In this document: in pieces, positions 36,685 through 54,752 of the stretch
Position numbering within the stretch: the stretch's first letter is position 1
Layout: each line of letters opens with the position of its first letter
Virus record (IMG/VR): IMGVR_UViG_3300031413_000005
Span: 32,001-96,000 of that record
Source of the DNA: a virus
DNA length: 64,000 nt
Strand: one strand, 5' to 3'
The notes under the pieces: generated by a model
Told to the model about the DNA's origin: nothing
Databases searched by the model: none
What the model saw: the letters and a program-made list of their open reading frames with translations, nothing else
Made by a program: the position numbers and the translations under genes

Positions 36685-39600
36685 CTAACCTGCTCCAAGC
36701 TGTTTGAGCGCGGTGCGGAGCGGGCCTTGCTTACTGGTCGCCTCGGTGACGATGCCGATGACCCAGTCCTTCCCGTTGAAGGACGGCTCGCTCGCTTCGG
36801 CCTCCATGTCCGTGCCGCTGTTGTTGATGAAGTCGATCTTAACCGACGGAGCGACACCGCCCCCGCCTGCGAGCCGTCGACCAAGGAGGTTCTGCTGATC
36901 TTCCGTCAGCATGAGCTCCTTTTCCTTGGCGATGATCGGATGCTCGCCTGGCTGGAGCGGTCGCTCACCGATAAAGCCGCCCGTGTGATACTTCGCGGCG
37001 TTCGCAAAGATGGCCGGGTTGACCCCGCTGACCGTCTTGAGAGCACCACCGATCACACCGCCCGTGTGGGCTACCGGGGTCTTTGCGGCCGAGTAACCGA
37101 TGCTGGACTTCGAGCCGTTATTCAGCCCCACGCCTGCCCCCATCTGACCCTTCAGGAACGAGCCCATGCTGACGTGCTTGCCGTCCGAGTTGTTCGCCAT
37201 GCCGATCGCCGAGAGGATTGCGTAGGCAATCATCGCCGTAAGGATCACCTTCATCAGGCTCTTGACCACACCCAGCACGAACTCACCGGTATTGAACTCG
37301 GCCTCACCGATGCCGTCGGCGTAGCTCGCCACGGCGTCGGCCATCGTCGACTGGATGCCCTGGCCCATCTTGGCCCAGTCGCGACCCATGCGAGTGATTG
37401 CGCCCTCGTTCTGGCGAGCAAGCTGCGCCTTCGAACCGCGGTCCCACTCAGCAAACGCCTTTTCCATATCGAGGCGACGCTGCGACCCGGCTGCGGTCAG
37501 CTCGATCAGGCGGCGCTGACGCGCGACCTCCAGCTCGTAGTTCTTCTGGCGCTGGTCGTTCTCCGACAGCAGGCTGTTCCGCATCTCGATCGCTGCATCG
37601 CTCCAGCCCTGGGCAATGTCGGCCGCGTCTGCGTCCTTGAAGTTCTGGACGATCTTGTCGATCGTGGCGTTCGCCGAAGCGAGATCGTCGCCCTTCAGTC
37701 CGTCGGTCAGACCAGCGAAGCGCGACGTGATCTGCGCGAGCCGCTTGTCGGTCTCCATCGTCCCCGACGAAAACGACTTCCACAGCGCATCGGCTTCGGT
37801 GCGTGACTTCGACAGTTCCGCGTCGAGCCGACCTGTGGATGCCTTCACGTCCTTCTGGCGATTGAGGCTCTCGACGATCTTCAGATACTCGCGCATCTGG
37901 TCGATCTTCTCCTGCGGCACGCCCTTAAACGCACCGGCCTCGAATTGAGCGTTGAAGCTGGCAAGGTCACCCTCGCCGCCCTGGAGCTCGTCGCGAAGCC
38001 CGGCGATCTTGCCCGCGAGGTTCGTCAGGCGCGTGTCGAGGTCGTCTGCTGCGTTTGCGGCGTCGGCCTGCCCACCCTTCGCGGCGGTCAGCGCATCCTT
38101 CATTGCCATCTGGCCGCGCACGACGTCGAGCTGAGCCTTGCTCCAGCCCTTATACTTCGGCGCACCAGCTGCGACCTCTGCGTTGAATTTCGCGAGGTTG
38201 CCGGCAGAGCCGTCCAGCTGAGCCTTGAGCTTGGCGACATTACCTGCACCCGCTGCCATAGCGGCCGGGAAGCTGCTCTTGCCGCCTCCACCACCGCTCA
38301 CGGCATTCGCGGTGCCTTCCAACGCGCCATTGGTCGCATCTGCCTGCTGCTTGAGCTGCCGAAGTGCCGAGATCATCGGACCCGACTTGAGACCCTTTGC
38401 CGTTCGAGCATCGACCATTGCCTGAAGGCTACCGATACGGTTCTGGAGATCGCCAGACGCCTTCTTGTCGTACTTGGCGCGCAGCTCCGCATCGATCGCA
38501 GCGATCTTCTTCTGATCGGTTACGCCCTTGGTGCGGATCTGCTGCTCGCGGACGTAGCTCTGCGAAAGACGGTCCAGGAAGGCGTCATGATCCGAGGTGA
38601 CCTTGTTTTGCCACTGCTGCTGCCGCTGCACATAGGCGGTCTGTTGACCCGCGGCGCGTGCGCCCACGAGGTCGTCATCCTCCTTCTTGATTTCAGCGAG
38701 GCGCTTCTTGCGCGAGGCGTCGTTGACGAACCAGGCGCCGTTGCCGGTGTTCTGGTGCGACTGACCGGATACGCCGATCCCCTTGCCCATGTCCTCGTTG
38801 AGCTCGCGAGCTTCCGCGGCCAGGTTCGCACGCTGCATGGCAACCTTTGCGGCGTCACCGGCTTCCTGGAACCCCTGACGCATGCGCTGCGCTGCTGCGG
38901 TCGCACGGTCAGCCGCGGTCTCGAACACGCCGAAAGCCGTTGCTGCCTGGTAGGCGAGCATCGCGATGATGCCGACCGGACCGAGCGCAAGGTTGACCGC
39001 GGCCCCGAGCGCGGTCGTTGCCACTGCGGCAACGCCGGTTGCAGCGCTATAGACGCCCTTGGCAAGCGCTGCTGCGCGCGTGGCGAGCGTCGACTCGACC
39101 GTCGATGCAGTCTCGGCATTCTGTGCTCGGACAAGCGCTGCCTCGGCCAGGATCTGGCGCTCGACGTTCGCGAGGATCTGGAACCCGACGCTGACCTTGC
39201 CCTTACCCGCGACAGCATTCCCAGCCATTGCGGCCGTCTCGCGAGAGATCGCAGCGGTGACGCCCGCGGTCGCCGTCGCAAGCCGTGCCTTGGCCGAAAT
39301 CTCCTGCGCGGTCTCTGCGCGGCCGGCGAGGCGACGAGCGCGCACTTCGCCTTCAACCCGTGAAAGGTTGGCTGCGGCGAGGGCTGCATTGCGCTGGGCT
39401 TGCGCAAGCTCGCTCTCCGCGATCGTCTGCTGCCGAAGCGCGGTGCGAATCTGCTGTGCGCGCTGTGTGCGGGTCAGGGCCGAGTTGTTGGCTGCGGCGT
39501 CGGCCTGGGCGCGAGCGACGGACAGACGCTCGATTGCGGCCTGCTCCTCCGCTGTCATGGCGATCGACTGAGCGCGAGCGGCCTGGATCGCCGGATCGGA

Positions 39601-41103
39601 CGCCATGTTCTTCGTCGCCTTGGCGATCGCCAGCTCGCGCACGCGGATCAGCTCTTGCTCGGCTGCTGCTGCGGCTGCGCGTGCCATGACGACATTCTGC
39701 GATGCGGCGAGCTGGCCTGCGCGCGAAGCGGCGTTCTGCGCGGCCTGCGTGGCGCGAAGCTGCGTCTCCTGCAACTTGAGCAGGACCAGTCGATTGTTCT
39801 CGTTCACGACGGCCTGGGCGGCGCCCGCGGCTGCTGCGCGTGCGCGCTGAGCTTCAGCCTGCGCGGACCCAAGGATCGTCACCCGGCCCGTCGCGACCGC
39901 CATGTTGTAGCGGATCTGCGCAACGGTGCCGTTGTCGACGCCCGAGAACAACGTGCGCATGTTTGCGCCGAGATTCGTCAGGTAGCCGGCGAGATTGTTC
40001 AGCATCTGGCCGAGCGAGTTCGCCCACGCCAGGCCCGTCTTCATCGCCCAGACGGTCGCGAGCGCCTTTGCGGCAAAGCCCACCTGATCCTTGAACTGGA
40101 CCACGGTCTTGATGACCGACACCAGCAGGCCCGCGACATTGCCGACACCCGCGCCGAACGACGCCAGGAACGACCGGGCCTCGGTCGAGCGCATGAGCGT
40201 GTTGAGCTGCTTCATCTCCCCGACGACGCGGCCGAAGAAGCTGTCTTTTTGACCCATGCCGGTGAAGTCGGTGGTGAGCTGCGCCCAATTCGACTTCACC
40301 TGCGCCATCTGGCCGAACAGGGTGTTTGCGAGCTTCTCGCCCGAGCCGTGGTAGACGCGCTCCATCTCGGCGAACATCGCGGCAAGCGCTGGCTTGGCCT
40401 GGACGGTCCCCTTCTGGATCATCTTGGCGAGTTCGGGCATCGACTTGCCCATGGCACGCGCCATCAGGCTCATAGCCGACGGCACCGCTTCACCCAGCTG
40501 CTGGCGAAGTTCTTCCATCGAGATGACGCCCTTGCCGGCCATCTGCTGGATCGCGATCGCGGCGCGGTTGAGGGTGTCACTGTTACCGCCGAACGCCGCG
40601 GTCGCGTCGACCAAGCCACGGAGCGAACCGTTCATCGGGTCGATGCCGCCCGACTTGATCTTGACGAACGACTGCGCGAGTTCCTGGACTGCAAAGCCCG
40701 AGGTGCGCGCGATCTGGTAGAGCGACGAAAGGCTCTGCTGCGCTTCCTTGCTCTTGCCGATGTCGGTGGTTGCGGTCGACAGGCCCTTCATGAGGACCGT
40801 CAGGCGCTCGATCTCGCCCGCCTGCTTGAAGATCGCGCCCAGCCAGCCGACCGAGACGTCCTTCAGCGTGAGGAATGCGGAGCGCGCCTGGCCCAAGATG
40901 ACCATCAGGTCGCGCAAGCGGGCGGTGGGCGAGGACATCGAACGCCCGACGTTGCCCATCGTGGCGCTGAAGCGATTGGCCTCGAGCCCGGTCGAACGTA
41001 CCGCACCGCCGAAGTTCAGGACGTCGCCCTTGGCGCCCGAGAGTTTGCCGTTCCACCGCGAGGTATCGAGATCGAGGACGACGCTTAGTTTACGGACGGC
41101 CAT
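36685..41103 (-). CDS. Tape measure protein
   Basis: About 1470 aa, Ala-rich helical; IQQMAGKGVISMEELRQQLGEAVP; C-terminal HTGG repeats. Confidence 0.93.
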   Translation of the reverse strand: MAVRKLSVVLDLDTSRWNGKLSGAKGDVLNFGGAVRSTGLEANRFSATMGNVGRSMSSPTARLRDLMVILGQARSAFLTLKDVSVGWLGAIFKQAGEIERLTVLMKGLSTATTDIGKSKEAQQSLSSLYQIARTSGFAVQELAQSFVKIKSGGIDPMNGSLRGLVDATAAFGGNSDTLNRAAIAIQQMAGKGVISMEELRQQLGEAVPSAMSLMARAMGKSMPELAKMIQKGTVQAKPALAAMFAEMERVYHGSGEKLANTLFGQMAQVKSNWAQLTTDFTGMGQKDSFFGRVVGEMKQLNTLMRSTEARSFLASFGAGVGNVAGLLVSVIKTVVQFKDQVGFAAKALATVWAMKTGLAWANSLGQMLNNLAGYLTNLGANMRTLFSGVDNGTVAQIRYNMAVATGRVTILGSAQAEAQRARAAAAGAAQAVVNENNRLVLLKLQETQLRATQAAQNAASRAGQLAASQNVVMARAAAAAAEQELIRVRELAIAKATKNMASDPAIQAARAQSIAMTAEEQAAIERLSVARAQADAAANNSALTRTQRAQQIRTALRQQTIAESELAQAQRNAALAAANLSRVEGEVRARRLAGRAETAQEISAKARLATATAGVTAAISRETAAMAGNAVAGKGKVSVGFQILANVERQILAEAALVRAQNAETASTVESTLATRAAALAKGVYSAATGVAAVATTALGAAVNLALGPVGIIAMLAYQAATAFGVFETAADRATAAAQRMRQGFQEAGDAAKVAMQRANLAAEARELNEDMGKGIGVSGQSHQNTGNGAWFVNDASRKKRLAEIKKEDDDLVGARAAGQQTAYVQRQQQWQNKVTSDHDAFLDRLSQSYVREQQIRTKGVTDQKKIAAIDAELRAKYDKKASGDLQNRIGSLQAMVDARTAKGLKSGPMISALRQLKQQADATNGALEGTANAVSGGGGGKSSFPAAMAAGAGNVAKLKAQLDGSAGNLAKFNAEVAAGAPKYKGWSKAQLDVVRGQMAMKDALTAAKGGQADAANAADDLDTRLTNLAGKIAGLRDELQGGEGDLASFNAQFEAGAFKGVPQEKIDQMREYLKIVESLNRQKDVKASTGRLDAELSKSRTEADALWKSFSSGTMETDKRLAQITSRFAGLTDGLKGDDLASANATIDKIVQNFKDADAADIAQGWSDAAIEMRNSLLSENDQRQKNYELEVARQRRLIELTAAGSQRRLDMEKAFAEWDRGSKAQLARQNEGAITRMGRDWAKMGQGIQSTMADAVASYADGIGEAEFNTGEFVLGVVKSLMKVILTAMIAYAILSAIGMANNSDGKHVSMGSFLKGQMGAGVGLNNGSKSSIGYSAAKTPVAHTGGVIGGALKTVSGVNPAIFANAAKYHTGGFIGERPLQPGEHPIIAKEKELMLTEDQQNLLGRRLAGGGGVAPSVKIDFINNSGTDMEAEASEPSFNGKDWVIGIVTEATSKQGPLRTALKQLGAG

Positions 41104-41121
41104 CGGTTGATCTCGATCCAC

Positions 41122-41876: not shown

Positions 41877-42419
41877 TTAGGCTGCGGTGAGCGCCGGATC
41901 GCCGAAGACGCAGAGCGTGTCGGTGGTCAGGTCCACGTAGCCCGTGAACTCGACGTTGAAGATGCGCTGGTCGTCGACCTTGTAGGCGAAGGTCATGTCG
42001 CCCTTGCTGTTCGCGATCGGCACGACGAAGTCGCGGCTCTTGTCGGTGTCGGGCATGCCCTTGGGATGCAGGACGAGAATGCCGGCCGACTTGCGCAGCG
42101 ATGCGCCAACACCCGAGCCGAGCGTCAGCTTCTTCTTGGTGCCGTTGGTGACGAGCGTCGCGCCCGGCGTCACCGCGAGCAGCTTGTCGAGATCGCGCTC
42201 TGCCATCGGCACCTTCACGGTGACCTTACGGCCCTTGATGACTTCGTCGATCGCGGTCTCGCCGAACTGGTCAGCGGTAATCATCGTGGACTCGGTCGCG
42301 ATGGCAACTTCGCAGCCGCCCTTGGTGAGGCCGAGGTTCACGCCCTTAAAGGTGGGCGTGCATGGACCCATCTCGAGGTTTTCAAAATTGGTGGCGTCAG
42401 CCATTTCAGACATCTCCAA
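41877..42419 (-). CDS. Major tail (tube) protein
   Basis: LGLTKGG, DQFGET; position between tail terminator and chaperone. Confidence 0.85.
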   Translation of the reverse strand: MEMSEMADATNFENLEMGPCTPTFKGVNLGLTKGGCEVAIATESTMITADQFGETAIDEVIKGRKVTVKVPMAERDLDKLLAVTPGATLVTNGTKKKLTLGSGVGASLRKSAGILVLHPKGMPDTDKSRDFVVPIANSKGDMTFAYKVDDQRIFNVEFTGYVDLTTDTLCVFGDPALTAA

Positions 42420-42456: not shown

Positions 42457-42492
42457 ATAATAACACAGTGCATGCGTGTGGTCTACCATGCA
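42457..42492 (-). promoter_or_regulatory. Element plus -10 promoter for the tail tube gene
   Basis: Element-CTGTGT-TATTAT, the same 6-nt spacing as the other three. Confidence 0.6.
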
Positions 42493-42494
42493 CG

Positions 42495-45833: not shown

Positions 45834-46751
45834 TCAAATGTTGGTGACACCACCCAGGCGGGCCAGCGACTTCGTCGACTTCAGCGCCAGGCCGGTGTAC
45901 CACTTCACGCGGTAGCGCTCGGCGTCCTTGTTCTGGACCGGGCCGACCGAGCTCACCCGAACGCCTGCGGTGGGACCACCGAAGATGCCGTGGACGCCGT
46001 CGGCTTCGTTGAAGCGCGCTGCGTAGATCGAGCAGGTCGTCGGGGCCGCGCCGCGCACTTCCTTGTCCGACAGGAAGTCGTTGATGATGATCGGGACCGA
46101 ACGATACGACGGGACCGAGATCTTGCGATCACCACCCAGCGAGATCGTGACGTGCTCGGGGTTGGTGCCGCCCAGCTGGCGCAGCATCGCGGCGATCGCG
46201 TCGGTCGTGCCACCGCGCATCACCAGCGCGTCCGCACCGAGCGGGATCATACGGAGCAGACGATCGAGGTTCTCGAAGGTCAGCGCGCCGCCATTGCCAC
46301 CCGAGCCGGCATAGAAGGTCTGGTCCGCCGTCACGAGACGCTGGATGCCGTCGAACTCCTTGTTGCGGGCCGAGTTGTCGCCCTGGACCAGCGTGCGCTG
46401 GAACTTGCGGCTCATGCCCTTCACCTTGGCGGCGATCTGAACGGCCGTCTGGTCGTTCGTCTCCGACATGGTCTCGTCGAGGAAGTTGTCGACGTCGACG
46501 TCGCCGATCAGGATGCGGAGCTTCGCCACGACTTCCTGGAACGTCGAAGCGCTCTCGTTGATCGTGTCGTTCGGATCGAGGAAATCACCCTCGGCCAGCT
46601 CGAGCTCGCGGTCGTAGATGTAGCCCTTGCCCTGGATGCGCATGAAGGGCAGCATCGCGAACATGGCATCGTTGTCGATGATCTCCTCGATCACGCCCCG
46701 CTCGAGGGTCGTGGTCGAGAGCTTCTCGGCTTCCACACGAAGCAAAGGCAT
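45834..46751 (-). CDS. Major capsid protein (HK97 fold)
   Basis: 305 aa; GDVDVD, EFDGI, YRSVPI, RVKWYTGL; strong AGGAGA RBS; follows the scaffold gene. Confidence 0.9.
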   Translation of the reverse strand: MPLLRVEAEKLSTTTLERGVIEEIIDNDAMFAMLPFMRIQGKGYIYDRELELAEGDFLDPNDTINESASTFQEVVAKLRILIGDVDVDNFLDETMSETNDQTAVQIAAKVKGMSRKFQRTLVQGDNSARNKEFDGIQRLVTADQTFYAGSGGNGGALTFENLDRLLRMIPLGADALVMRGGTTDAIAAMLRQLGGTNPEHVTISLGGDRKISVPSYRSVPIIINDFLSDKEVRGAAPTTCSIYAARFNEADGVHGIFGGPTAGVRVSSVGPVQNKDAERYRVKWYTGLALKSTKSLARLGGVTNI

Positions 46752-46848: not shown

Positions 46849-47595
46849 CTACCGCCGATTGCTCGCACGCAGGTTTGCGAAGCCCTCCGCGAACAGCTGA
46901 TGACGGCTCTTGCCCGTGTCGGGGTCGGTCTTGCCGCCATCGGTGCGCGAGCCCGCGCCGGGCTTGGCGTTCGACTTCAGCAGGTCGTCCTTGTCGGGAT
47001 CGGCCATGATGACCTTCTCGATCGCGGCTTCGAAGCCCAGCGGCTTGCCGGAACCGTCGACCAGCATCGTGCGCTTCGCGGCGCCCTTGGGCTTGTCATA
47101 GACGACGGTCTCGCCATCGACGACTTCCGCATGCTCGTGGAACAGGGTGCGAACCTTGCCGACCGGCAATGCGACCTTCTCGCGGAGGAACTTGCTTTCG
47201 TTGAAGGCGCGGTCGATCGCCATGTTGTCGAGGCGGGCGTCTGCGGCCGACTTGCCGGTCTTCAGCTCCTCGATCTGCGCCTGGAGCGCCGCTTCCTTGG
47301 CGTCACGCTCGGCGACCATCAGCTCGCGCACGCGCTCCCAGTTGCCCTCGGCTTCGGCCTTTGCCTTCTCGGCATCGCGCTTCGCAGCTTCCGACGCGTC
47401 ACGCGCGGCGATTGCTGCCTTGGCTGCGGCCGGGTCGAGGCCCTCGAACTGTGCGAGGCTGGCGTCGCGGCTTGCGAGTTCGGCGCGCAGACGTTCGAGC
47501 TCAGCCACATTGGCGTCGGGCTTCTCGTCCTTCTTGTCGGCTGCTGCGGCTGCTGCTGCGGCCGCATCTGCTGCGGCCTGTTCTTCTGGATCCAC
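46849..47595 (-). CDS. Capsid scaffolding protein
   Basis: Charged coiled coil, directly upstream of the major capsid gene. Confidence 0.75.
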   Translation of the reverse strand: MDPEEQAAADAAAAAAAAADKKDEKPDANVAELERLRAELASRDASLAQFEGLDPAAAKAAIAARDASEAAKRDAEKAKAEAEGNWERVRELMVAERDAKEAALQAQIEELKTGKSAADARLDNMAIDRAFNESKFLREKVALPVGKVRTLFHEHAEVVDGETVVYDKPKGAAKRTMLVDGSGKPLGFEAAIEKVIMADPDKDDLLKSNAKPGAGSRTDGGKTDPDTGKSRHQLFAEGFANLRASNRR

Positions 47596-47686: not shown

Positions 47687-48943
47687 CTACTTGCCGACGA
47701 TTTGCGTCACGTATGGATTGACGGGAACGCTGTATCGCGTCGCCTTGGAGCCATCCATCTTGTAGATGTAGCTCTCCGGCCAGATACGACCGCCGCCCCA
47801 CCACGTCGCGCCCTTGAGCACATCGGCGTTGGCGCGCAGCGCTTCGATAGCCTCCTGCCCCACAGCCTTGCAGGTCGAATGCACACCATAGCTCGAGCCG
47901 AATGCGGACTCAGTGATGTAGGCTTGGAGGTTGCGCCGGCGAAGCTGCTCGGCGAACTCGACGAACCCGCTGGTCTTGGCGTCGCATTCCTTGCTCGTGC
48001 CCGACGAACCCCGATCGAAGTAGCGGTGGGCGTTGATGCGCGTCAGGCCGAGCGGGTCCTTCAGGCCACCCCCGCGGTCGATCGCGCAGGCCGCGCTCTC
48101 GCAAGCCTTGTTCGGTCCTTCATGCTTGTCGAAGCGGAACGATGCTGACCACTGCGGATATTCGAGCAGGATCGGGTGCCGGATACCGTTCGCACGCAGA
48201 CCGGCGATGATGATGTTGCTGTCGCGCAGCCACTGGTCCCAGTCGTTTGTCAGGACCGGATCATCGAAGCCCTTCGGCTCGTTGACCAGGTCGAGAAGTA
48301 CAGACCCATCATCAGGGAAGTTTCGCGCGAAGGCCGTCCAGTCGGCGATCATCACCGAAGGCACGCGCCAGGTGTAATCGTGGCGGTCGAGGATGACGGG
48401 AACACCCTTGCTGCCAGCATAGGCGACGCTGACCTTCAGGTCTGCGACCCGGGCCGGGGTCATGCGCTCCAGCTTGAACGGGTAGCGGATGAGCTGGAAG
48501 CCGTACCGCTCGATGTAACCCGTCCAGTCCTCGATCGACGGCCGAACCGCGTCGCTTCCGCTTGCTTCGGCGCCGGATAGGTTTGCACCGAACAGCACCT
48601 TTGCGGGCTTTACTGCTGCGGCGCAGGGAGCCGCGTCGATCGGTGCGTAGACCCAGCCCTTGCCCTGGACGTTCTCGACGAACCGGATCTTGCTGGCGCC
48701 GATCGTCTCGAACCAGTTGCCGGCCGCGTCCGAACGCGCGCGATCGTTCCAGCCCTTCCACCCCTTCTCACGCGAGCCGTCGGCCAGGAGCTCGCGGCCC
48801 ATCTTCTTTTTGAGAACTAGGGTGTCGCCCGCGCAGACGGTAATCTGCGCGGGAGGGTTGGCGCCGGTGACGATGTGTTCGGTCCGCGCAGCTACCGGCG
48901 TGGAGAGGAGCGCGGCGATGGCGAAAACGACGCCGCGGATCAC
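47687..48943 (-). CDS. Secreted GH5 endoglucanase (cellulase family)
   Basis: Signal peptide ending PVAA; GANLSGAE, RYPF..ER, LDRHDY, NEP (acid/base), HRYFD, ITE (nucleophile), WWGGG. Confidence 0.85.
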   Translation of the reverse strand: MIRGVVFAIAALLSTPVAARTEHIVTGANPPAQITVCAGDTLVLKKKMGRELLADGSREKGWKGWNDRARSDAAGNWFETIGASKIRFVENVQGKGWVYAPIDAAPCAAAVKPAKVLFGANLSGAEASGSDAVRPSIEDWTGYIERYGFQLIRYPFKLERMTPARVADLKVSVAYAGSKGVPVILDRHDYTWRVPSVMIADWTAFARNFPDDGSVLLDLVNEPKGFDDPVLTNDWDQWLRDSNIIIAGLRANGIRHPILLEYPQWSASFRFDKHEGPNKACESAACAIDRGGGLKDPLGLTRINAHRYFDRGSSGTSKECDAKTSGFVEFAEQLRRRNLQAYITESAFGSSYGVHSTCKAVGQEAIEALRANADVLKGATWWGGGRIWPESYIYKMDGSKATRYSVPVNPYVTQIVGK

Positions 48944-51822
48944 TGGTCGAGCGCCTTAAAGCCAGAGGGGATGGGGATGGTCATCGTGGCAGCAGTGAAG
49001 CGGGCGACGAAGTTCCCGACCCCTCGGAACGAACAACATGCGGAATAGCCCGAGTTCCGTCGCCCGACAGCGGCAACGTCAAGGGCGCGAATTTGCGATA
49101 TGTCGATGCCTCCAACACCGGTTGCCGGGTTCGCATCAGCCGAACCATTGAACAGGGTTGACGTAGAAGGTCGCACCCAAAGAAGATCAGCGTCCGCATC
49201 CACGCAGAAAAGATACGACCCGCCACTCGGCACAGCCTCTGCTTTAGCATTCGCAACAGCGGCGAGAAGCATGGTGACTTGCCCGTTGGCGACAGGATTA
49301 AAGCCGATCCCCTCGTTTGTTGCGTACACGGTGCCGCTCTGCGGCTTGTTCAGCTTGGTGAGGTGTCCGACAACGCCAAGCATCATATTCGCGGGCGTTC
49401 CCGTATAACCGACCTCCCAGCAGTATTTACCGGTGCGAATGATCGGGTAACCGTAGACCACGGTCCCGCCACCGCCGCTCGGAAGCGAGGCAATGTCTGC
49501 GCCCCGGATAGCGGAAGCTGCGTCGCCGTTGGCGTTGGTCAAAACCACAGCCGTAGAATGGTCGAACCAGCTCCACGTCAGCGGCCCGAAGGTCCGAACG
49601 CCAGGAGCTGCGACTGCCTTGTTGATTGCGGCGCTATAAACTGGCCCGAAGTATTCAACCGCTGTGTTCTTGAAGTGCGTGCCGTCACCCGAGAAATCTA
49701 CGGTAACCTTCGCAGCAGTATCGAGCTCTGGAACTGAGCCCAAATCGAACATGTAATCCGCGTTTAGGTAGCTGCTGTATAGGGCGCGAATGCTCTGGTT
49801 GAGCGGCACGGTAGCGCCGTCGAAGTTGTGCTCGACACTGGTATCAGTGGCATCGAACGCCACGTTATTGCGTGACGGGATGGTGCCGACAAGGGTTCGT
49901 TGGAACCCGACGCCACCAGCTCTGACCATTACGGAACGGAGAGCCCGCATGATGGAGTCATGCGCCTGGAACACGCCGTCGTTGGTGCCGGCCATGATCG
50001 TGCCGATATTCATATCGACGTTGGGGTTAAAGGCAGGCCCCATGCCGACGTCCGAACCGGTGCCACCAAGCGGTCCTGCCGTTACCGAGATAGGCCCCGA
50101 GCCACCAGTGCCGTTCGCGAACTGGCTTGCCATGATTGCCGCAGTCTGACCGCTCAAAGACAGCTTGCGGTAAGTGTAGGTCGGCCCGGCAGTCAGGCCC
50201 GATACCACACCTCGATCGACGTAGCTGTTGATGCCACCAGGCGTACCGCCGATGCCGGTCGTGTTGCTGTCGCCCTCGGCAGCGATCTGCACGGTGGACG
50301 GCAGGTTCGAGAAGGCGTCATCGTTAAGGATAGTGCCGGTCGCGCTCATCGATGCGCCCGTGACGTAGCCGCTCGGGGTCGAGATCAGGACGGTGAACGT
50401 CTCGTCAGGTTCGAATGAAGGGTCGCCGTTGACGCTAATCGAGAAGGTCCCAGTCGCGACACCGTCTGCCATCGCGACGTTTCCACCAGCAGGGAACGAC
50501 CCACCGGTGAAGTCGCTCGCCGAAGTGCTGCCCGCGGTGAACGACCACGGAACATTGATCGCGCCCGTCGTCGACGATCGCGTCACGGTGTAGGTGAACA
50601 CGGTTGCGCCGCTGTTCCCTTCGGACTTCGATTGCGCGCCCGACATGGTGACAGTTGGCGCAGCGTCGTCGTTTGTGATCGTGCCGGTCGACGTCACGGT
50701 GTTGAGCCCAGCTGCCGTAACAGCGAGGGTGAACGTGTCGTTGGGCTCGAATGCGGTGTCGCCCGCGACAATCACCGAAATGGTCTTGCTCGTCTCGCCT
50801 GCTGCAAACGTACCGCTGCCGGCCGGGAATGCACCGCCGAAGTCTGCCGCGTCGGCCGGGTTTGCACCGCTACCCACGGTGGACCAGCTGAACGGATACG
50901 CTGCCGTGCTGCCGTCTCGGTTGAGCGTGAGGGTCCAGGAGAAGACAGCCGTTCCGCTGTTGCCTTCGGACTTGGTGACCGCAGACGAGAGCGACAGGGA
51001 AGGCGCTGGGACCGCAGCAGCAGCTGATACCGTAACCGGGGAGGAGGTCGACTTGATCGTCTCTCCGTTGGTGCCAAGCACGGTATTCTCGCGGGTCAGC
51101 GAGCCCGTGGCATTCGGCGTGACCGTGGCGCCGGTGCCAATCGCGGTCGTGCCGAGCAGCCAGCGACGGCTCGTGATCGTGCCGTTCGTGGGGGTGCCGT
51201 CTGTCGCGGAGAAGGTCGTTCCGACCGCGCCGCTACTTGGCGAGATCGTCGGCTGGGTAAGCGTGGGCGACGGGATCGGCGTTACGGTTTCGCCGTCACC
51301 TGCGACCAGATCCGGGTCGCCGAAGACGCAGAGTGTGTCGGTTTCCAGGTTCACATAACCGTTGAACTCGACCGCGAACACACGCTGGTCGTCAACCTTG
51401 TAGGCGAAGGCCATGTCGCCCTTGCAGCTGGCAAGCGGGATGGTGAAGTCGCGGCTCTTGTCCTCGATCGGCATGCCCTTGGGGTGCAGAACCAGCGCGC
51501 CCGAAGTCTTGCGCAACGACGCACCGACGCCCGAACCGAGCGTGAGCTTCTTCCTCGCAAACTTGCCGATGCCGTTGGTTACGAGCGTCGCGCCAGGCGT
51601 CACGGCCAGGAGCTTGTCGAGATCGCGTTCAGCCATCGGCACCTTCACGGTGACCTTGCGACCCTTGATGACCTCGTCGATGGCGGTCTCGCCAAACTGG
51701 TCGACCGTGATGAGGGTCGATTCCGTGGCGATCGAGACTTCGACGCCGCCCTTCGTGAGACCAAGATCCAGGCCGCGATACGTCGGCAGGCATGGACCCA
51801 TCTCAAGCTTTTCGAAACTCAC
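48940..51822 (-). CDS. Tail-tube paralogue fused to Ig-like, 2x Calx-beta, SGNH hydrolase and SPRY-like domains
   Basis: First ~170 aa are roughly 80% identical (manual alignment) to 41877-42419; two SEGNSG...EP.(D/E)TF Calx-beta repeats; GDS/G/GTND/DGTH SGNH blocks; GKYCWEV...VDADADLLW SPRY-like tail. Confidence 0.85.
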   Translation of the reverse strand: MSFEKLEMGPCLPTYRGLDLGLTKGGVEVSIATESTLITVDQFGETAIDEVIKGRKVTVKVPMAERDLDKLLAVTPGATLVTNGIGKFARKKLTLGSGVGASLRKTSGALVLHPKGMPIEDKSRDFTIPLASCKGDMAFAYKVDDQRVFAVEFNGYVNLETDTLCVFGDPDLVAGDGETVTPIPSPTLTQPTISPSSGAVGTTFSATDGTPTNGTITSRRWLLGTTAIGTGATVTPNATGSLTRENTVLGTNGETIKSTSSPVTVSAAAAVPAPSLSLSSAVTKSEGNSGTAVFSWTLTLNRDGSTAAYPFSWSTVGSGANPADAADFGGAFPAGSGTFAAGETSKTISVIVAGDTAFEPNDTFTLAVTAAGLNTVTSTGTITNDDAAPTVTMSGAQSKSEGNSGATVFTYTVTRSSTTGAINVPWSFTAGSTSASDFTGGSFPAGGNVAMADGVATGTFSISVNGDPSFEPDETFTVLISTPSGYVTGASMSATGTILNDDAFSNLPSTVQIAAEGDSNTTGIGGTPGGINSYVDRGVVSGLTAGPTYTYRKLSLSGQTAAIMASQFANGTGGSGPISVTAGPLGGTGSDVGMGPAFNPNVDMNIGTIMAGTNDGVFQAHDSIMRALRSVMVRAGGVGFQRTLVGTIPSRNNVAFDATDTSVEHNFDGATVPLNQSIRALYSSYLNADYMFDLGSVPELDTAAKVTVDFSGDGTHFKNTAVEYFGPVYSAAINKAVAAPGVRTFGPLTWSWFDHSTAVVLTNANGDAASAIRGADIASLPSGGGGTVVYGYPIIRTGKYCWEVGYTGTPANMMLGVVGHLTKLNKPQSGTVYATNEGIGFNPVANGQVTMLLAAVANAKAEAVPSGGSYLFCVDADADLLWVRPSTSTLFNGSADANPATGVGGIDISQIRALDVAAVGRRNSGYSACCSFRGVGNFVARFTAATMTIPIPSGFKALDQ

Positions 51823-53450
51823 TTACCTGACTCCTTGGCTTTATCGTCGGCCTTCACCGATCCCTTGTTGTTCTGTCCCTGCGAGCCGTTCTGTCCGGGG
51901 AGACGGCCGGGCTTCGGCGCCGTGGGGCGCCCAGCAGGCCCGCCAGGCATCAGCTCGGCCGGATCAGGCTCTGCGAGCCAGTCGCCGTCGATGTCGGCTT
52001 CGATGGCCTTCTTGTCGGTCTCGCTGACCTGGGGGTACATTTTGCCCGCCAGCTTCTTCATCTGGATCTTGCGGAGCGCCTTGGGCGCATTCATCACAGC
52101 CAGGCGCTGGGCGTTGTCCATGTCGTCGGCGAGGTTGCGGACGTCGAAGGTCGTCGGATACGTGACGTATTCTTTGCAGTCCTCAAGCTCCTCGAGGGTG
52201 CCCCACCAGCCCATCACGAGACGGTTGATCGAGTTCTCGGCCGCGGCGAGCGCCATCGCCTTCGCGACCAGCATCGCGTTCAGGCGCTCGAAGTCATACG
52301 CCTTGGCGACGCCCGAGCTGTTGTCGATGCCGACCGAGTTGTCCGACTTGGTCCGCTCGCCGGCCATGCCGATCGAGTGGTAGATCTCGTCGATGATCTT
52401 AGAGATGACGGTGATGATGATCCCAGCCTGGCGAGGATCTGGGGACAGAAACTCCGGCGCGGAACCGCCTTCAGCATTGTAGGCGAACACCCGCTTGGTG
52501 CCCATCTCATACATCTGCTTCTGGGTGCCCTTCTTGCCCTCGTCGTCGTTGTCGGACTCGAGCAGTCCCTGATACGGGATCGCCAGCTGGCTGAAGGTCT
52601 GGTCCTGGATGATCGCGTCGAGGTTCGACAGGTAGTTCGTGGCGCCGCGATCCATGTAGGCCACGTCGTCGATCAGGCCCTTGTTGGAGTAGAGCTCCTC
52701 GGACGGGTTGTGATCGACCGGCACGACCGGCACCGCGCCCAGCTTGTGCTCGGCGTTCTCACCGACCGCGGCGATGCGGTCACCGGCCTCGTTCTTGGCG
52801 ACGGTGATGACGGCGTAAAATTCGGGCGTCCAGATGCGGAACTGCGTCGCGACCTTGCCGGAAGCGAGCGGGCTCACGTCGTCGCGCTTGGTCTCGGCCA
52901 GCAGGAACCACGACAGCTCGCCGTCCTCGTCATAGGCGAAATCGAGCGCGTCGATCGGGGACACCAGGTAGGCGTAGACGCGACCCTTTGATGCCTTTTC
53001 CTCGGCGACGGTCTTGGTCTCGGCGGGGAAGTTGTTGTCGACGACAACGTAGACGCGGCCGAAGATCGAGGACTTGCGCGAGATGGTGTCCATCAGCGTG
53101 TCGACTGGACGCTTCATGAGCGTCGCGTTCTTCCAGAACCGCTTGATCTTATCCGGAGCATCGGCGCTGCGCGCGATGTCGCCCTTCAGGACATATTTGT
53201 TGACGAGGTTCACGACCTCGCGTGTGTGCGGGAAGCGATAGGCGCGCTTCTTGCGCTCGCGAAATTCCCGCAGACCCTCCTTGTGATAGCGCCAGAGGTT
53301 CGCGTCGAACCACGAACGGCCCCCGTCATGGGTCGCTTCGAGGAAACGCCAATGATCGAGGTTGTCCGCATATTCGGGGTGCCGGCGATCGACGATCGCG
53401 AGCAGGGCGTCAGACGATGCCGCCTTCAGTTCAGTGAGCGTGATAGCCAT
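51819..53450 (-). CDS. Portal protein
   Basis: 543 aa, directly after terL; HPEY, LGAVPVV, SGVAK. Confidence 0.85.
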   Translation of the reverse strand: MAITLTELKAASSDALLAIVDRRHPEYADNLDHWRFLEATHDGGRSWFDANLWRYHKEGLREFRERKKRAYRFPHTREVVNLVNKYVLKGDIARSADAPDKIKRFWKNATLMKRPVDTLMDTISRKSSIFGRVYVVVDNNFPAETKTVAEEKASKGRVYAYLVSPIDALDFAYDEDGELSWFLLAETKRDDVSPLASGKVATQFRIWTPEFYAVITVAKNEAGDRIAAVGENAEHKLGAVPVVPVDHNPSEELYSNKGLIDDVAYMDRGATNYLSNLDAIIQDQTFSQLAIPYQGLLESDNDDEGKKGTQKQMYEMGTKRVFAYNAEGGSAPEFLSPDPRQAGIIITVISKIIDEIYHSIGMAGERTKSDNSVGIDNSSGVAKAYDFERLNAMLVAKAMALAAAENSINRLVMGWWGTLEELEDCKEYVTYPTTFDVRNLADDMDNAQRLAVMNAPKALRKIQMKKLAGKMYPQVSETDKKAIEADIDGDWLAEPDPAELMPGGPAGRPTAPKPGRLPGQNGSQGQNNKGSVKADDKAKESGK

Positions 53451-53498: not shown

Positions 53499-54752
53499 CT
53501 ACAGATCGATACCGATCGGCATGCGGACCTTGCGGCCGTAGTGATAGTGGATCGGGTAACCCACGGCGTCGGCCATGTGGTCCACACCCATCGTCTTGTC
53601 GACCATCGGCGTGCCCGGCTTGTAGATCGTCTGCTCCATCGCCTCGATGACGTGCGTGCATTTGGCGTCGAACCGGAGGCGGATCGTGCCGTCTGCGGTG
53701 CGCAGCATCGAGTTCACGGCCGACACGCGGTCCGCGACCAGTGGATGCTTCTTCGGGAAGATGAGCTTGATGTAGCCCTTCTCGCGGAAGACATCGAGGT
53801 CGCTCTCGCCGCGGCTGGAGCTGCGGTTCGAACCGGCCGGATCGGGGTAGATGGCGATCGAGCGCTTGTATTTGAAATAGCGGCGGTCGAGTTCCTCGGC
53901 CACCTCCATGACGTTCGAGTTCGGGAAGTGGATCTCGTCGATGATCCAGACCTCGCCGTTCTCCTGCACCTGCATGATTGCAGACGACATCGGATCGACG
54001 TTGAAGTCCTGGCCAACGATGATCGGTAGCTTCGGATTGAACGGGTAATTGCCGACGTGCTGCCGGCGATCGAACTGGTAATAGACGCGGCCCGACATGC
54101 TCTCGAACGACGCCTCGAACTCCTGACGGAAGCTCTTGGGGTCCATCGAGTTACGCGCGGTCTCGATCTCAGAAGGCGGGAAGAACGGGCTTTCGATCGT
54201 GGGAATCTGCCACGACATATACTCCAGTTTCTTCTGGTTCTTCTTGATCTGCCCGAGACGATACATCTCGTGGAAATGGTTGAAGGACTTCGGCGTGCCG
54301 ATGATGAGCGCGCGACCGCGGGTGGTCGTCAGCGTCGGGAACAGAACCTCCTGCCAGACGCCCGGCCGGAAATCCTGGTACTCGTCCAAGATCAGGAAGT
54401 GCAGCGCACGGCCGCGCAGCGTGTCGGGGCGATCGGCGCCCTTCAGCTGGATGAGCACGCCGTTGATGAGGCGGATCTCGAGCCTGGTCTCGTGGGTCTT
54501 GCGGATCCACGACGCCGGTATGTTCGCCAGCAGCTCGTCCCACATCAGGTCGCGGGCCATCGTGAAGGTCGGCGCGACATACCAGATGATCTTAGGACCG
54601 CGGCCCCGCGCGGCGCGGATGATCTCGGCGCGCGCAAGCGTGGTCTTCCCGAACCGTCGACCCGCGACAAGCGTGCGGAAGCGAGCCGGGTGACGGAACA
54701 CGTCGGCCTGCCCCTTGTGGAGCTTGATGTGGATCTTCGGTGGTTCGAACAT
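53499..54752 (-). CDS. terL: Terminase large subunit
   Basis: AGRRFGKT, YVAPT, LILDEY, IIGTPK, GQDFN, DHMADA. Confidence 0.95.
   Translation of the reverse strand: MFEPPKIHIKLHKGQADVFRHPARFRTLVAGRRFGKTTLARAEIIRAARGRGPKIIWYVAPTFTMARDLMWDELLANIPASWIRKTHETRLEIRLINGVLIQLKGADRPDTLRGRALHFLILDEYQDFRPGVWQEVLFPTLTTTRGRALIIGTPKSFNHFHEMYRLGQIKKNQKKLEYMSWQIPTIESPFFPPSEIETARNSMDPKSFRQEFEASFESMSGRVYYQFDRRQHVGNYPFNPKLPIIVGQDFNVDPMSSAIMQVQENGEVWIIDEIHFPNSNVMEVAEELDRRYFKYKRSIAIYPDPAGSNRSSSRGESDLDVFREKGYIKLIFPKKHPLVADRVSAVNSMLRTADGTIRLRFDAKCTHVIEAMEQTIYKPGTPMVDKTMGVDHMADAVGYPIHYHYGRKVRMPIGIDL

What the first reader, a model, noticed from the sequence alone, without database searches (positions are those of the whole stretch)
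48940..51822. Second tail-tube gene carrying an enzyme: tube-Ig-Calx-beta x2-SGNH esterase-SPRY, placed in the head module
Seen: residues ~1-170 are a full-length paralogue of the major tail protein, roughly 80% identical by manual alignment, with an identical run DQFGETAIDEVIKGRKVTVKVPMAERDLDKLLAVTPGATLVTNG and a 4-aa insertion. They are followed by about 790 aa of adhesin-like domains, an SGNH hydrolase with intact Ser/Gly/Asn/Asp-x-x-His blocks, and a SPRY/lectin-like end. Established: tail tubes can carry Ig/FN3 extensions (lambda gpV; SPP1 gp17.1* by frameshift). I do not know of a separately encoded tube paralogue bearing a catalytic domain. Inference: it co-polymerises as a minor subunit and displays polysaccharide de-O-acylases along the tail shaft, making the tube domain a display anchor for swappable cargo. 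The SGNH-SPRY part looks less GC3-biased by eye.
Basis: partly seen in the sequence, partly recalled or inferred. Interest (0 to 1): 0.8.

Follow-up and report, generated by a model that had tools for sequence, protein, structure and literature searches.

The report
Tail-tube paralogue carrying an esterase
A 109-kb phage of leaf-surface bacteria (probably Sphingomonas) has a second, diverged copy of its tail-tube gene fused to a long stalk ending in a sugar-deacetylating enzyme. The same stalk-plus-glucanase cassette sits behind a different, resident-type tube domain in unrelated phages, so tube domains appear to serve as lineage-matched anchors for exchangeable enzymes.

Summary
ORF 48940-51822 (minus strand, 960 aa) starts with a tail-tube domain 80% identical to the phage's own 180-aa major tail protein. 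It continues with an Ig-like domain, two Calx-beta domains, an SGNH esterase with all catalytic blocks, and a SPRY-like end.

It is not an assembly artefact. Contigs from two further studies bridge the three junctions I checked (portal/ORF start, tube/stalk, stalk/SGNH) with no differences.

The tube pair is old (dS 0.73) and under purifying selection (dN/dS 0.18). A 44-residue core is identical between the copies despite 12 silent changes, while the nearest orthologue differs there at 10 of 44 positions.

The gene is a lineage-specific insertion. 32 of 33 related records have only the scaffold gene between portal and capsid genes, and all 50 related records carry a single short tube gene per genome copy.

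The new result is a natural anchor swap. Lambda-like Sphingomonas phages carry the same stalk (81% identical) and the same downstream GH5 gene (68-76%). There they follow a lambda-type tube domain that is 75% identical to that lineage's own short tube protein.

This supports the anchor-with-swappable-cargo reading. Incorporation into the tail is still inferred, not shown. I found no precedent in the literature searched.

The parts
48940..51822 (-). Whole gene for the 960-aa tube-stalk-esterase protein (P0001), stop codon included
   Evidence: contigs of other samples are identical over long parts of it
51298..51822 (-). Tail-tube domain, residues 1-175
   Evidence: 80% identical to the major tail protein. 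phrog_2175 E 6e-43. Model pLDDT 92 with Foldseek hits to solved tail-tube proteins. dN/dS 0.18.
51013..51297 (-). Pro/Thr-rich linker and Ig-like domain, residues 176-270
   Evidence: Start of the stalk shared at 81% identity with lambda-type long paralogues. The Ig/PKD-like fold rests on leads only.
50308..51012 (-). Two Calx-beta domains, residues 271-505
   Evidence: Pfam PF03160, 38.6 bits, two stretches. 81% identical to L249 residues 150-485.
49594..50307 (-). SGNH/GDSL esterase domain, residues 506-743, with S519, G558, N614, D713 and H716
   Evidence: Blocks invariant in eight homologues. Homologues pass the Pfam GDSL cut-offs. VIA Z 10-11.4 to GDSL and carbohydrate esterases.
48943..49593 (-). 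SPRY-like beta-sandwich, residues 744-960
   Evidence: Foldseek E 5e-6. VIA Z 12-13.8.
51831..51836 (-). Shine-Dalgarno AAGGAG, 8 nt before the GTG start, which overlaps the portal stop codon (GTGA)
47687..48943 (-). GH5 glycoside hydrolase with a hydrophobic, signal-peptide-like N-terminus; its GTG start overlaps the stop codon of P0001
   Evidence: Pfam PF00150 E 2e-19. Junction. GH5 genes 68-76% identical follow the lambda-type long paralogues.
41877..42419 (-). The phage's ordinary major tail (tube) protein, just upstream of the chaperone and tape-measure genes
   Evidence: Synteny in phages Unity and RHph_X66. A TGCATG-N12-CATGCA element lies just upstream.
51819..53450 (-). Portal gene, upstream neighbour
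   Evidence: phrog_145 E 7e-83
46849..47595 (-). Scaffold gene. In 32 of 33 relatives it is the only gene between portal and capsid genes.

Best explanation
The gene encodes an accessory virion protein. Its N-terminal domain is a diverged copy of the phage's own tail-tube subunit, and I infer that it enters the tube as a minor subunit alongside the 180-aa major tail protein. Its C-terminal 785 residues form an arm projecting from the tail: a linker, an Ig-like domain, two Calx-beta domains, an SGNH esterase and a SPRY-like sugar-binding end. The arm most likely removes O-acyl groups from the host's exopolysaccharide or capsule, together with the co-transferred GH5 glucanase. That would help the particle get through the polysaccharide layer of a Sphingomonas-type host.

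Shown: the domain make-up, the intact catalytic motifs, purifying selection on the tube domain, the mosaic origin, and the pairing of shared cargo with a resident-type tube domain in two phage lineages.

Inferred: incorporation into the tail, low copy number, and the substrate.
For: (1) Tube identity. The domain is 80% identical to the major tail protein. The predicted fold matches solved tail-tube proteins at pLDDT 92. Homologues sit directly before the chaperone and tape-measure genes in isolated phages.

(2) Constraint. dN/dS is 0.18 at dS 0.73. Residues 41-84 are 44/44 identical between the paralogues despite 12 silent changes, while the nearest orthologue (L006) differs there at 10/44.

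(3) Natural anchor swap. Contigs L249, L250 and L252 carry a lambda-type tube domain, identified by Atlas features 0.95 and TM 0.9. It is followed by a stalk 81% identical to residues 180-508 and then by a GH5 gene 68-76% identical to the window's. In provirus G055 the long form's tube domain is 75% identical to that provirus's own short tube protein, with dN/dS 0.16. The two tube families show no detectable sequence similarity to each other.

(4) Same anchor, other enzymes. P0122 carries a GDSL lipase and P0135 a CE4 deacetylase. The G055 long form carries GH5.

(5) Topology. The tube domain is N-terminal and the cargo C-terminal, as in lambda gpV and SPP1 gp17.1* (PMC8718954).

(6) Expression set-up consistent with a minor component, though no level was measured. 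The gene has a GTG start coupled to the portal gene's stop codon and a lower GC3. The major tail protein has a palindromic element of its own just upstream.

(7) Enzyme. The SGNH residues are invariant and the fold matches carbohydrate esterases.
Against: There are no virion proteomics or imaging data. Mixed-ring models could not be run.

The long copy's tube domain has evolved about four times faster than the major tail protein since the split (branch lengths 0.21 and 0.049). That could mean relaxed constraint.

The gene is absent from 32 of 33 related records, so it is dispensable for the phage type.

Relative G006 carries a large Ig-Calx-beta-helix gene at the same site without any tube domain. 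Cargo genes at this site therefore do not need a tube anchor.

The substrate is unknown. The SGNH model has low confidence (pLDDT about 60), and the domain itself misses the Pfam cut-off.
Confidence: 0.58

Rival explanations
1. The long paralogue does not mix at random with the major tail protein. It forms one dedicated ring, or a few, at a fixed place such as next to the tail tip or the neck, giving a collar of six enzyme arms.
For: The tube fold is reused for single-ring adaptors such as terminators and distal tail proteins, and Foldseek lists such proteins among the matches. The long copy has diverged faster, with 14 changes assigned to its branch against 4, which could reflect a specialised position. 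Six arms of 785 aa per ring would be crowded if spread along the whole tube (inference).
Against: 80% identity and a fully identical 44-residue core suggest the same contacts as the major tail protein. Nothing in the sequence marks a special position.
Confidence: 0.17
2. The protein is not part of the virion. The tube domain only makes the enzyme oligomeric, and the enzyme is released at lysis, with the secreted GH5, to strip host polysaccharide so that progeny can escape or spread.
For: The partner GH5 has a hydrophobic, signal-peptide-like N-terminus, which fits an enzyme that acts outside the virion. G006 has an enzyme gene at the same site without any recognisable anchor. The cassette behaves like a mobile accessory unit.
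Against: If any oligomerising domain would do, there is no reason for the anchor to match the resident tube family in two unrelated lineages. There is also no reason for a core segment to stay identical to the resident major tail protein. A free tube-competent domain would be expected to enter growing tails anyway (inference).
Confidence: 0.15
3. The feature is an assembly chimera or a decaying duplicate without function.
For: The record is a metagenome-assembled virus, and the protein cluster is seen on one contig only.
Against: Contigs from two other studies are identical across the junctions. The 960-codon frame is open. dN/dS is 0.18 and the catalytic residues are invariant. The start and stop overlap the neighbouring genes. 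The same architecture recurs in other phages.
Confidence: 0.02

Closest known systems
Bacillus phage SPP1 gp17.1 / gp17.1* (tube subunit extended by an FN3 domain)
   Same: Two forms of the tube subunit, one short and one with a C-terminal extension facing outwards, present together in one tube at 3:1. The extension is dispensable (PMC8718954).
   Different: In SPP1 both forms come from one gene by a programmed frameshift, and the extension is one small binding domain. Here the long form is a separate, diverged gene (80% identical) 5.5 kb away, with 785 aa of cargo that includes a catalytic domain.
Lactococcal 936-group phages, major tail protein extension TpeX
   Same: A long extension on the tube subunit that carries a carbohydrate-binding module and binds the host surface. 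The modules are shared with other virion anchors such as Dit and the neck passage structure (PMC6669499).
   Different: TpeX is made by a frameshift from the major tail protein gene and is a binding module. It is not described as an enzyme in that paper.
Phage lambda gpV and T5 pb6 (tube proteins with a C-terminal Ig-like domain)
   Same: Tube domain at the N-terminus and a decoration at the C-terminus. The lambda-type family is the anchor of the parallel Sphingomonas examples.
   Different: In lambda and T5 every subunit carries one small Ig-like domain, and there is neither a paralogue nor an enzyme.
Rhodobacter capsulatus GTA head spike (base Rcc01079, fibre Rcc01080)
   Same: Some Sphingomonas proteins join a spike-base domain (NF048002) to a Calx-beta domain 69-79% identical to that of P0001. 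The same stalk is therefore also hung on a head anchor.
   Different: P0001 has no spike-base domain (no NCBIfam hit). Its anchor is a tube domain.
Tail-fibre or tailspike esterases and depolymerases
   Same: A virion-borne enzyme acting on host surface polysaccharide. The SGNH-SPRY head of P0001 is 91-93% identical to one carried on a different N-terminus that follows two large (1212- and 488-aa) ORFs in another viral contig.
   Different: Those enzymes sit at the tail tip or baseplate on fibre-type anchors. Here the anchor is a tube subunit.

Membership tests
Siphophage major tail (tube) protein, PHROG 2175 / 1280 family | Sequence membership in the family | tested here: met
   phrog_2175 E 6e-43 and phrog_1280 E 1e-26 over residues 5-174. 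80% identical to the resident major tail protein.
Siphophage major tail (tube) protein, PHROG 2175 / 1280 family | Tail-tube fold | tested here: met
   Model pLDDT 92. Foldseek E 1e-6 to 1e-2 to solved tube proteins, including Douge, YSD1, T5, lambda V and R4C.
Siphophage major tail (tube) protein, PHROG 2175 / 1280 family | Gene directly upstream of the tail chaperone and tape-measure genes | tested here: not met
   P0001 lies between the portal and scaffold genes. The 180-aa paralogue holds the canonical position.
Siphophage major tail (tube) protein, PHROG 2175 / 1280 family | Polymerises into hexameric rings in the virion | not testable with these tools
SGNH/GDSL hydrolase | Conserved blocks I, II, III and V with Ser, Gly, Asn and Asp-x-x-His | tested here: met
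   S519, G558, N614, D713 and H716 are invariant in eight homologues.
SGNH/GDSL hydrolase | Alpha/beta SGNH fold | tested here: met
   VIA-align Z 10-11.4 over model residues 3-237 to GDSL, CE3, acetyl-xylan and sialate esterases. The model there has only moderate confidence.
SGNH/GDSL hydrolase | Pfam gathering score | tested here: not met
   The domain alone scores 12.6 bits against 32.9. Homologues 37-38% identical pass: P0271 34.1 against 32.9, P0272 26.6 against 23.6.
SGNH/GDSL hydrolase | Esterase activity | not testable with these tools
   Needs an enzyme assay.
SPRY / B30.2 domain | Bent beta-sandwich SPRY fold | tested here: met
   Foldseek E 5e-6, probability 1.0. VIA Z 12-13.8, 144-164 residues aligned at 2.8-3.5 A.
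SPRY / B30.2 domain | Pfam PF00622 match | tested here: not met
   No hit for residues 746-960. Homologue P0271 scores only E 0.17.
Calx-beta domain | Pfam PF03160 above the gathering score | tested here: met
   38.6 bits against 27, two stretches.
Frameshift-extended tube proteins (SPP1 gp17.1*, 936 TpeX) | Long form made from the major tail protein gene itself by programmed frameshift | tested here: not met
   Separate gene, 79.5% nucleotide identity, own Shine-Dalgarno and start codon.
RcGTA head-spike base (NF048002) | Spike-base N-terminal domain | tested here: not met
   No NCBIfam hit in P0001. The domain is present in P0040 and P0047.

The most novel reading that the evidence does not exclude
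Tail-tube domains act as lineage-matched docking modules. A mobile enzyme cassette (Ig-Calx stalk with an exchangeable enzyme head, plus a secreted GH5) can be plugged into unrelated siphophages by fusing it to a copy of whichever tube protein the recipient uses. The result would be tails whose shafts are enzymatically active, with copy number set by a separate, weakly expressed paralogue rather than by a frameshift.
Probability: 0.5. Interest if true: 0.8.

Novelty: new variant of a known kind. Interest (0 to 1): 0.68.

Why it matters
Decorated tail tubes are known, but only as small binding domains added to the tube gene itself. A separately encoded tube paralogue carrying a catalytic domain would make the tail shaft an active tool for crossing capsules and biofilm matrix, not just the tip.

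It would also be a second, gene-duplication route to setting how many decorated subunits a tail contains.

The natural anchor swap between two tube families is a ready-made design rule for displaying foreign proteins on phage tails.

Finally, it gives a simple annotation rule: a long protein whose first 150-180 residues match the resident tube protein is a candidate virion enzyme.

Tried and rejected
The genomic contexts of P0122, P0135, P0136 and P0006 could therefore not be read. Scans for P0122, P0135 and P0136 in viral and metagenome contigs found nothing usable.
- Megablast of the structural region against isolated phages found no match. No isolated phage record covers more than 21% of P0001 or more than 60% of the lambda-type long form. 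The GH5 has no match at all.
- Sequence and profile searches of the PDB with either tube family found nothing. hhalign between the two tube families gave probability 0.1.
- P0147 (4178 aa) in the representative search is a spurious repeat-motif match, not a tube fusion.
- The profile hit to the RcGTA head-spike fibre Rcc01080 (E 2e-8) comes from alignment columns whose consensus does not resemble P0001. I take these to be parts of other homologues. P0001's own end does not match that fibre.
- The word-based search for longer proteins with this tube domain returned only P0001. This is weak evidence, because the HMMER scan did find P0122, P0135 and P0136.
- Two 151-nt contigs from a metatranscriptome run are identical to the stalk region. 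This is too little to claim transcription.
- The 4-residue 'insertion' lies in a loop of variable length, and the orthologue L006 has the longer loop as well. It may equally be a deletion in the major tail protein.
Full report
**What is there.** The window is part of a 109,429-bp virus record estimated 98% complete. Its late genes run on the minus strand in this order:
- large terminase, 53499-54752
- portal, 51819-53450
- the 960-aa ORF under study, 48940-51822
- a GH5 hydrolase, 47687-48943
- scaffold, 46849-47595
- major capsid protein, 45834-46751
- connector genes
- a 180-aa protein, 41877-42419
- a chaperone-like gene
- a 1478-aa tape-measure gene, 36685-41121.

The 180-aa protein belongs to PHROG 2175/1280. 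Its homologues in Paenibacillus phage Unity and Rhizobium phage RHph_X66 lie directly before the chaperone and tape-measure genes. It is therefore the major tail (tube) protein.

- Residues 2-174 of the long protein are 80% identical to the tube protein, with one 4-residue gap (E 1e-95).
- At the DNA level the copies are 79.5% identical, and 46 of 138 conserved residues use different codons.
- A model of residues 1-180 built on 78 family members has pLDDT 92. It matches solved tail-tube proteins, including mycobacteriophage Douge, YSD1, T5, lambda V and roseophage R4C.
- Pfam finds two Calx-beta domains.
- Residues 506-743 carry the four SGNH blocks (S519, G558, N614, D713-x-x-H716). These are invariant in eight homologues, some of which pass the Pfam GDSL cut-offs. 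The modelled fold aligns with GDSL and carbohydrate esterases at Z 10-11.4.
- Residues 744-960 match SPRY domains (Foldseek E 5e-6; Z up to 13.8).
- The Ig-like label for residues 176-275 rests on weak leads only.
- GC3 falls from 0.81 in the tube part to 0.70 and 0.665 in the SGNH and SPRY parts. Neighbouring genes have 0.81-0.88.

**Not an artefact.**
- The GTG start overlaps the portal stop codon (GTGA) and follows an AAGGAG motif by 8 nt. The stop codon overlaps the GTG start of the GH5 gene.
- Contigs from a phyllosphere run and from two leaf-litter runs, each filed under its own study, match the window without differences. They bridge the portal/ORF, tube/stalk and stalk/SGNH junctions.

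**Evolution of the duplicate.**
- For the tube pair, dS is 0.73 and dN/dS is 0.18.
- In a tree of 24 tube domains, the two window copies and the tube protein of the closest relative (L006) form a clade with 99/98 support. The branching order inside that clade is unresolved. The branch lengths are 0.049 for the major tail protein and 0.21 for the long copy.
- Residues 41-84 are identical in the two copies although their DNA has 12 silent differences. The L006 orthologue differs from both at 10 of these 44 positions. This segment is therefore not unusually constrained between phages, yet it has stayed fixed between the two copies inside one phage.
- This is what co-assembly into one tube would demand. 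That reading is an inference.

**A lineage-specific insertion.**
- Fifty related viral records, 19 of them at least 90% complete and about 100-117 kb long, each carry one short tube gene of 170-255 aa per genome copy. One 215-kb record has everything doubled.
- In 32 of 33 records the portal and capsid genes are 0.9-1.4 kb apart, which leaves room for the scaffold gene only.
- The exception, G006, has a 1393-aa gene at the same junction. It begins with the same three residues, contains an Ig-like region and a Calx-beta domain 35% identical to those of P0001, and has a right-handed beta-helix. It has no tube domain.
- The portal/scaffold junction is therefore a repeated landing site for large enzyme genes, and the position says nothing about a role in the head.

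**The protein is a three-part mosaic.**
1. Residues 1-175 derive from the resident tube protein.
2. Residues 180-508 are 81% identical to the stalk of an 887-aa protein in metagenome contig L249, and about 80% identical to several Sphingomonas proteins.
3. Residues 498-960 are 91-93% identical to the C-terminal head of P0002 and the L005 protein, which has a different N-terminus and follows two large ORFs in another viral contig. They are 77% identical to P0003.

**The natural anchor swap.**
- The Sphingomonas proteins that share the stalk begin with a 150-residue domain that has no detectable similarity to the window's tube domain. Atlas features (0.95) and predicted structure (TM about 0.9) identify it as a lambda-like tail-tube protein.
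- In provirus G055 this long form (1494 aa, with GH5 cargo) coexists with an ordinary 151-aa tube protein. The two are 75% identical, with dN/dS 0.16 and dS 0.97.
- Related contigs show the short gene in the canonical position before the chaperone and tape-measure genes (L265, L270). The long gene lies at the far end of the late region.
- In L249, L250 and L252 the lambda-type long gene is followed by a GH5 gene 68-76% identical over its whole length to the window's GH5. In G055 the following GH5 is 40% identical.
- So one cassette, stalk with enzyme head plus GH5, occurs in two unrelated siphophage types. Each time it is fused to a diverged copy of the recipient's own tube protein.
- A third anchor also occurs. 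P0040 and P0047 join a GTA head-spike base domain to a Calx-beta domain 69-79% identical to that of P0001.
- Within the window's own tube family, a full HMMER scan found 744 relatives. Among the best 150, three real long fusions appeared: P0122 (cadherin-like repeats plus a GDSL lipase), P0135 (a CE4 polysaccharide deacetylase) and P0136.

**Most likely mechanism.** The tube domain enters the growing tail with the major tail protein. The arm projects outwards, as C-terminal decorations do in lambda, SPP1, T5 and the lactococcal 936 phages. The esterase then removes acyl groups from the host's surface polysaccharide, and the SPRY-like end holds the chain.

A low copy number is plausible but not measured. 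The gene has a GTG start coupled to the portal gene and lower GC3. The major tail protein has a palindromic TGCATG-N12-CATGCA element just upstream, which earlier notes of this scan read as a promoter or operator.

The host is probably Sphingomonas. The closest cargo relatives are Sphingomonas proteins, and the phage occurs in phyllosphere and leaf-litter samples. The substrate is unknown. Acylated sphingan-type polysaccharide is my suggestion from general knowledge only.

**Rivals.** These are a dedicated ring of six arms, a free oligomeric enzyme released at lysis, and an artefact. The last is contradicted. The free-enzyme reading does not explain why the anchor tracks the resident tube family.

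**Comparison with what is known.**
- The closest described systems are SPP1 gp17.1*, the 936-group TpeX extension and the Ig-like ends of lambda gpV and T5 pb6.
- All of those are made from the tube gene itself and carry binding domains.
- A review of major tail proteins contains no occurrence of the words enzyme, hydrolase or paralogue. Five full-text searches found no tube paralogue with a catalytic domain.
- No isolated phage in the collection searched has an equivalent gene.
- I class this as a new variant of a known kind, the decorated tail tube.
- Another first-reader note of this scan describes the same stretch in similar terms.

**Limits.**
- There is no direct evidence for incorporation into virions.
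- The SGNH-SPRY model is of moderate quality (pLDDT 60).

Noticed in passing
window 47687-48943 (-); L249:6362-7615; L216:14344-15732: A GH5 hydrolase with a hydrophobic, signal-peptide-like N-terminus always follows the tube-anchored enzyme gene. It is 68-76% identical between this phage and lambda-like Sphingomonas phages and 40% identical in provirus G055. It has no match in isolated phages. It looks like a secreted partner enzyme that travels with the cassette.
   Followed up: partly
L248:2015-6196 (-) (record G006): A related provirus has a 1393-aa gene at the same portal/scaffold junction, with an Ig-like region, a Calx-beta domain and a right-handed beta-helix. It starts with the same three residues (V-S-F) overlapping the portal stop codon but has no tube domain. 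How, or whether, it attaches to the particle is unknown.
   Followed up: partly
proteins P0040 and P0047 (Sphingomonas genomes): The same Calx-beta domain (69-79% identical) is also fused to an RcGTA-type head-spike base domain (NF048002). The stalk is therefore shared among tube, fibre-like and head-spike anchors.
   Followed up: partly
alignment A6, profile positions 856-965: A profile of the SGNH-SPRY homologues matches the RcGTA head-spike fibre Rcc01080 (PDB 6tb9, E 2e-8). The matching columns do not resemble P0001 and probably come from parts of other homologues.
   Followed up: partly
window 42470-42494 (-): A TGCATG-N12-CATGCA element lies about 50 nt upstream of the major tail protein gene. 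None was seen in the approximately 60 nt read upstream of the long paralogue's start. Earlier notes of this scan describe about 26 copies genome-wide.
   Followed up: no
window 42402-42419 (-): The listed TTG start of the major tail protein is probably too early. Family members begin about 5 residues before the conserved N-x-x-L-E-M-G-P-C stretch, which fits the ATG at 42404 preceded by GGAG.
   Followed up: no
record G042 (215,656 bp): This related viral record carries two copies of the tube and portal genes and two to three pieces of the capsid gene about 107 kb apart. It looks like a head-to-tail dimer of one genome rather than a larger phage.
   Followed up: no
L005:9635-11392: A copy of the SGNH-SPRY head 91% identical to residues 498-960 sits on a different N-terminus after 1212-aa and 488-aa ORFs in another viral contig. 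This points to recent exchange of the enzyme head between phages.
   Followed up: partly
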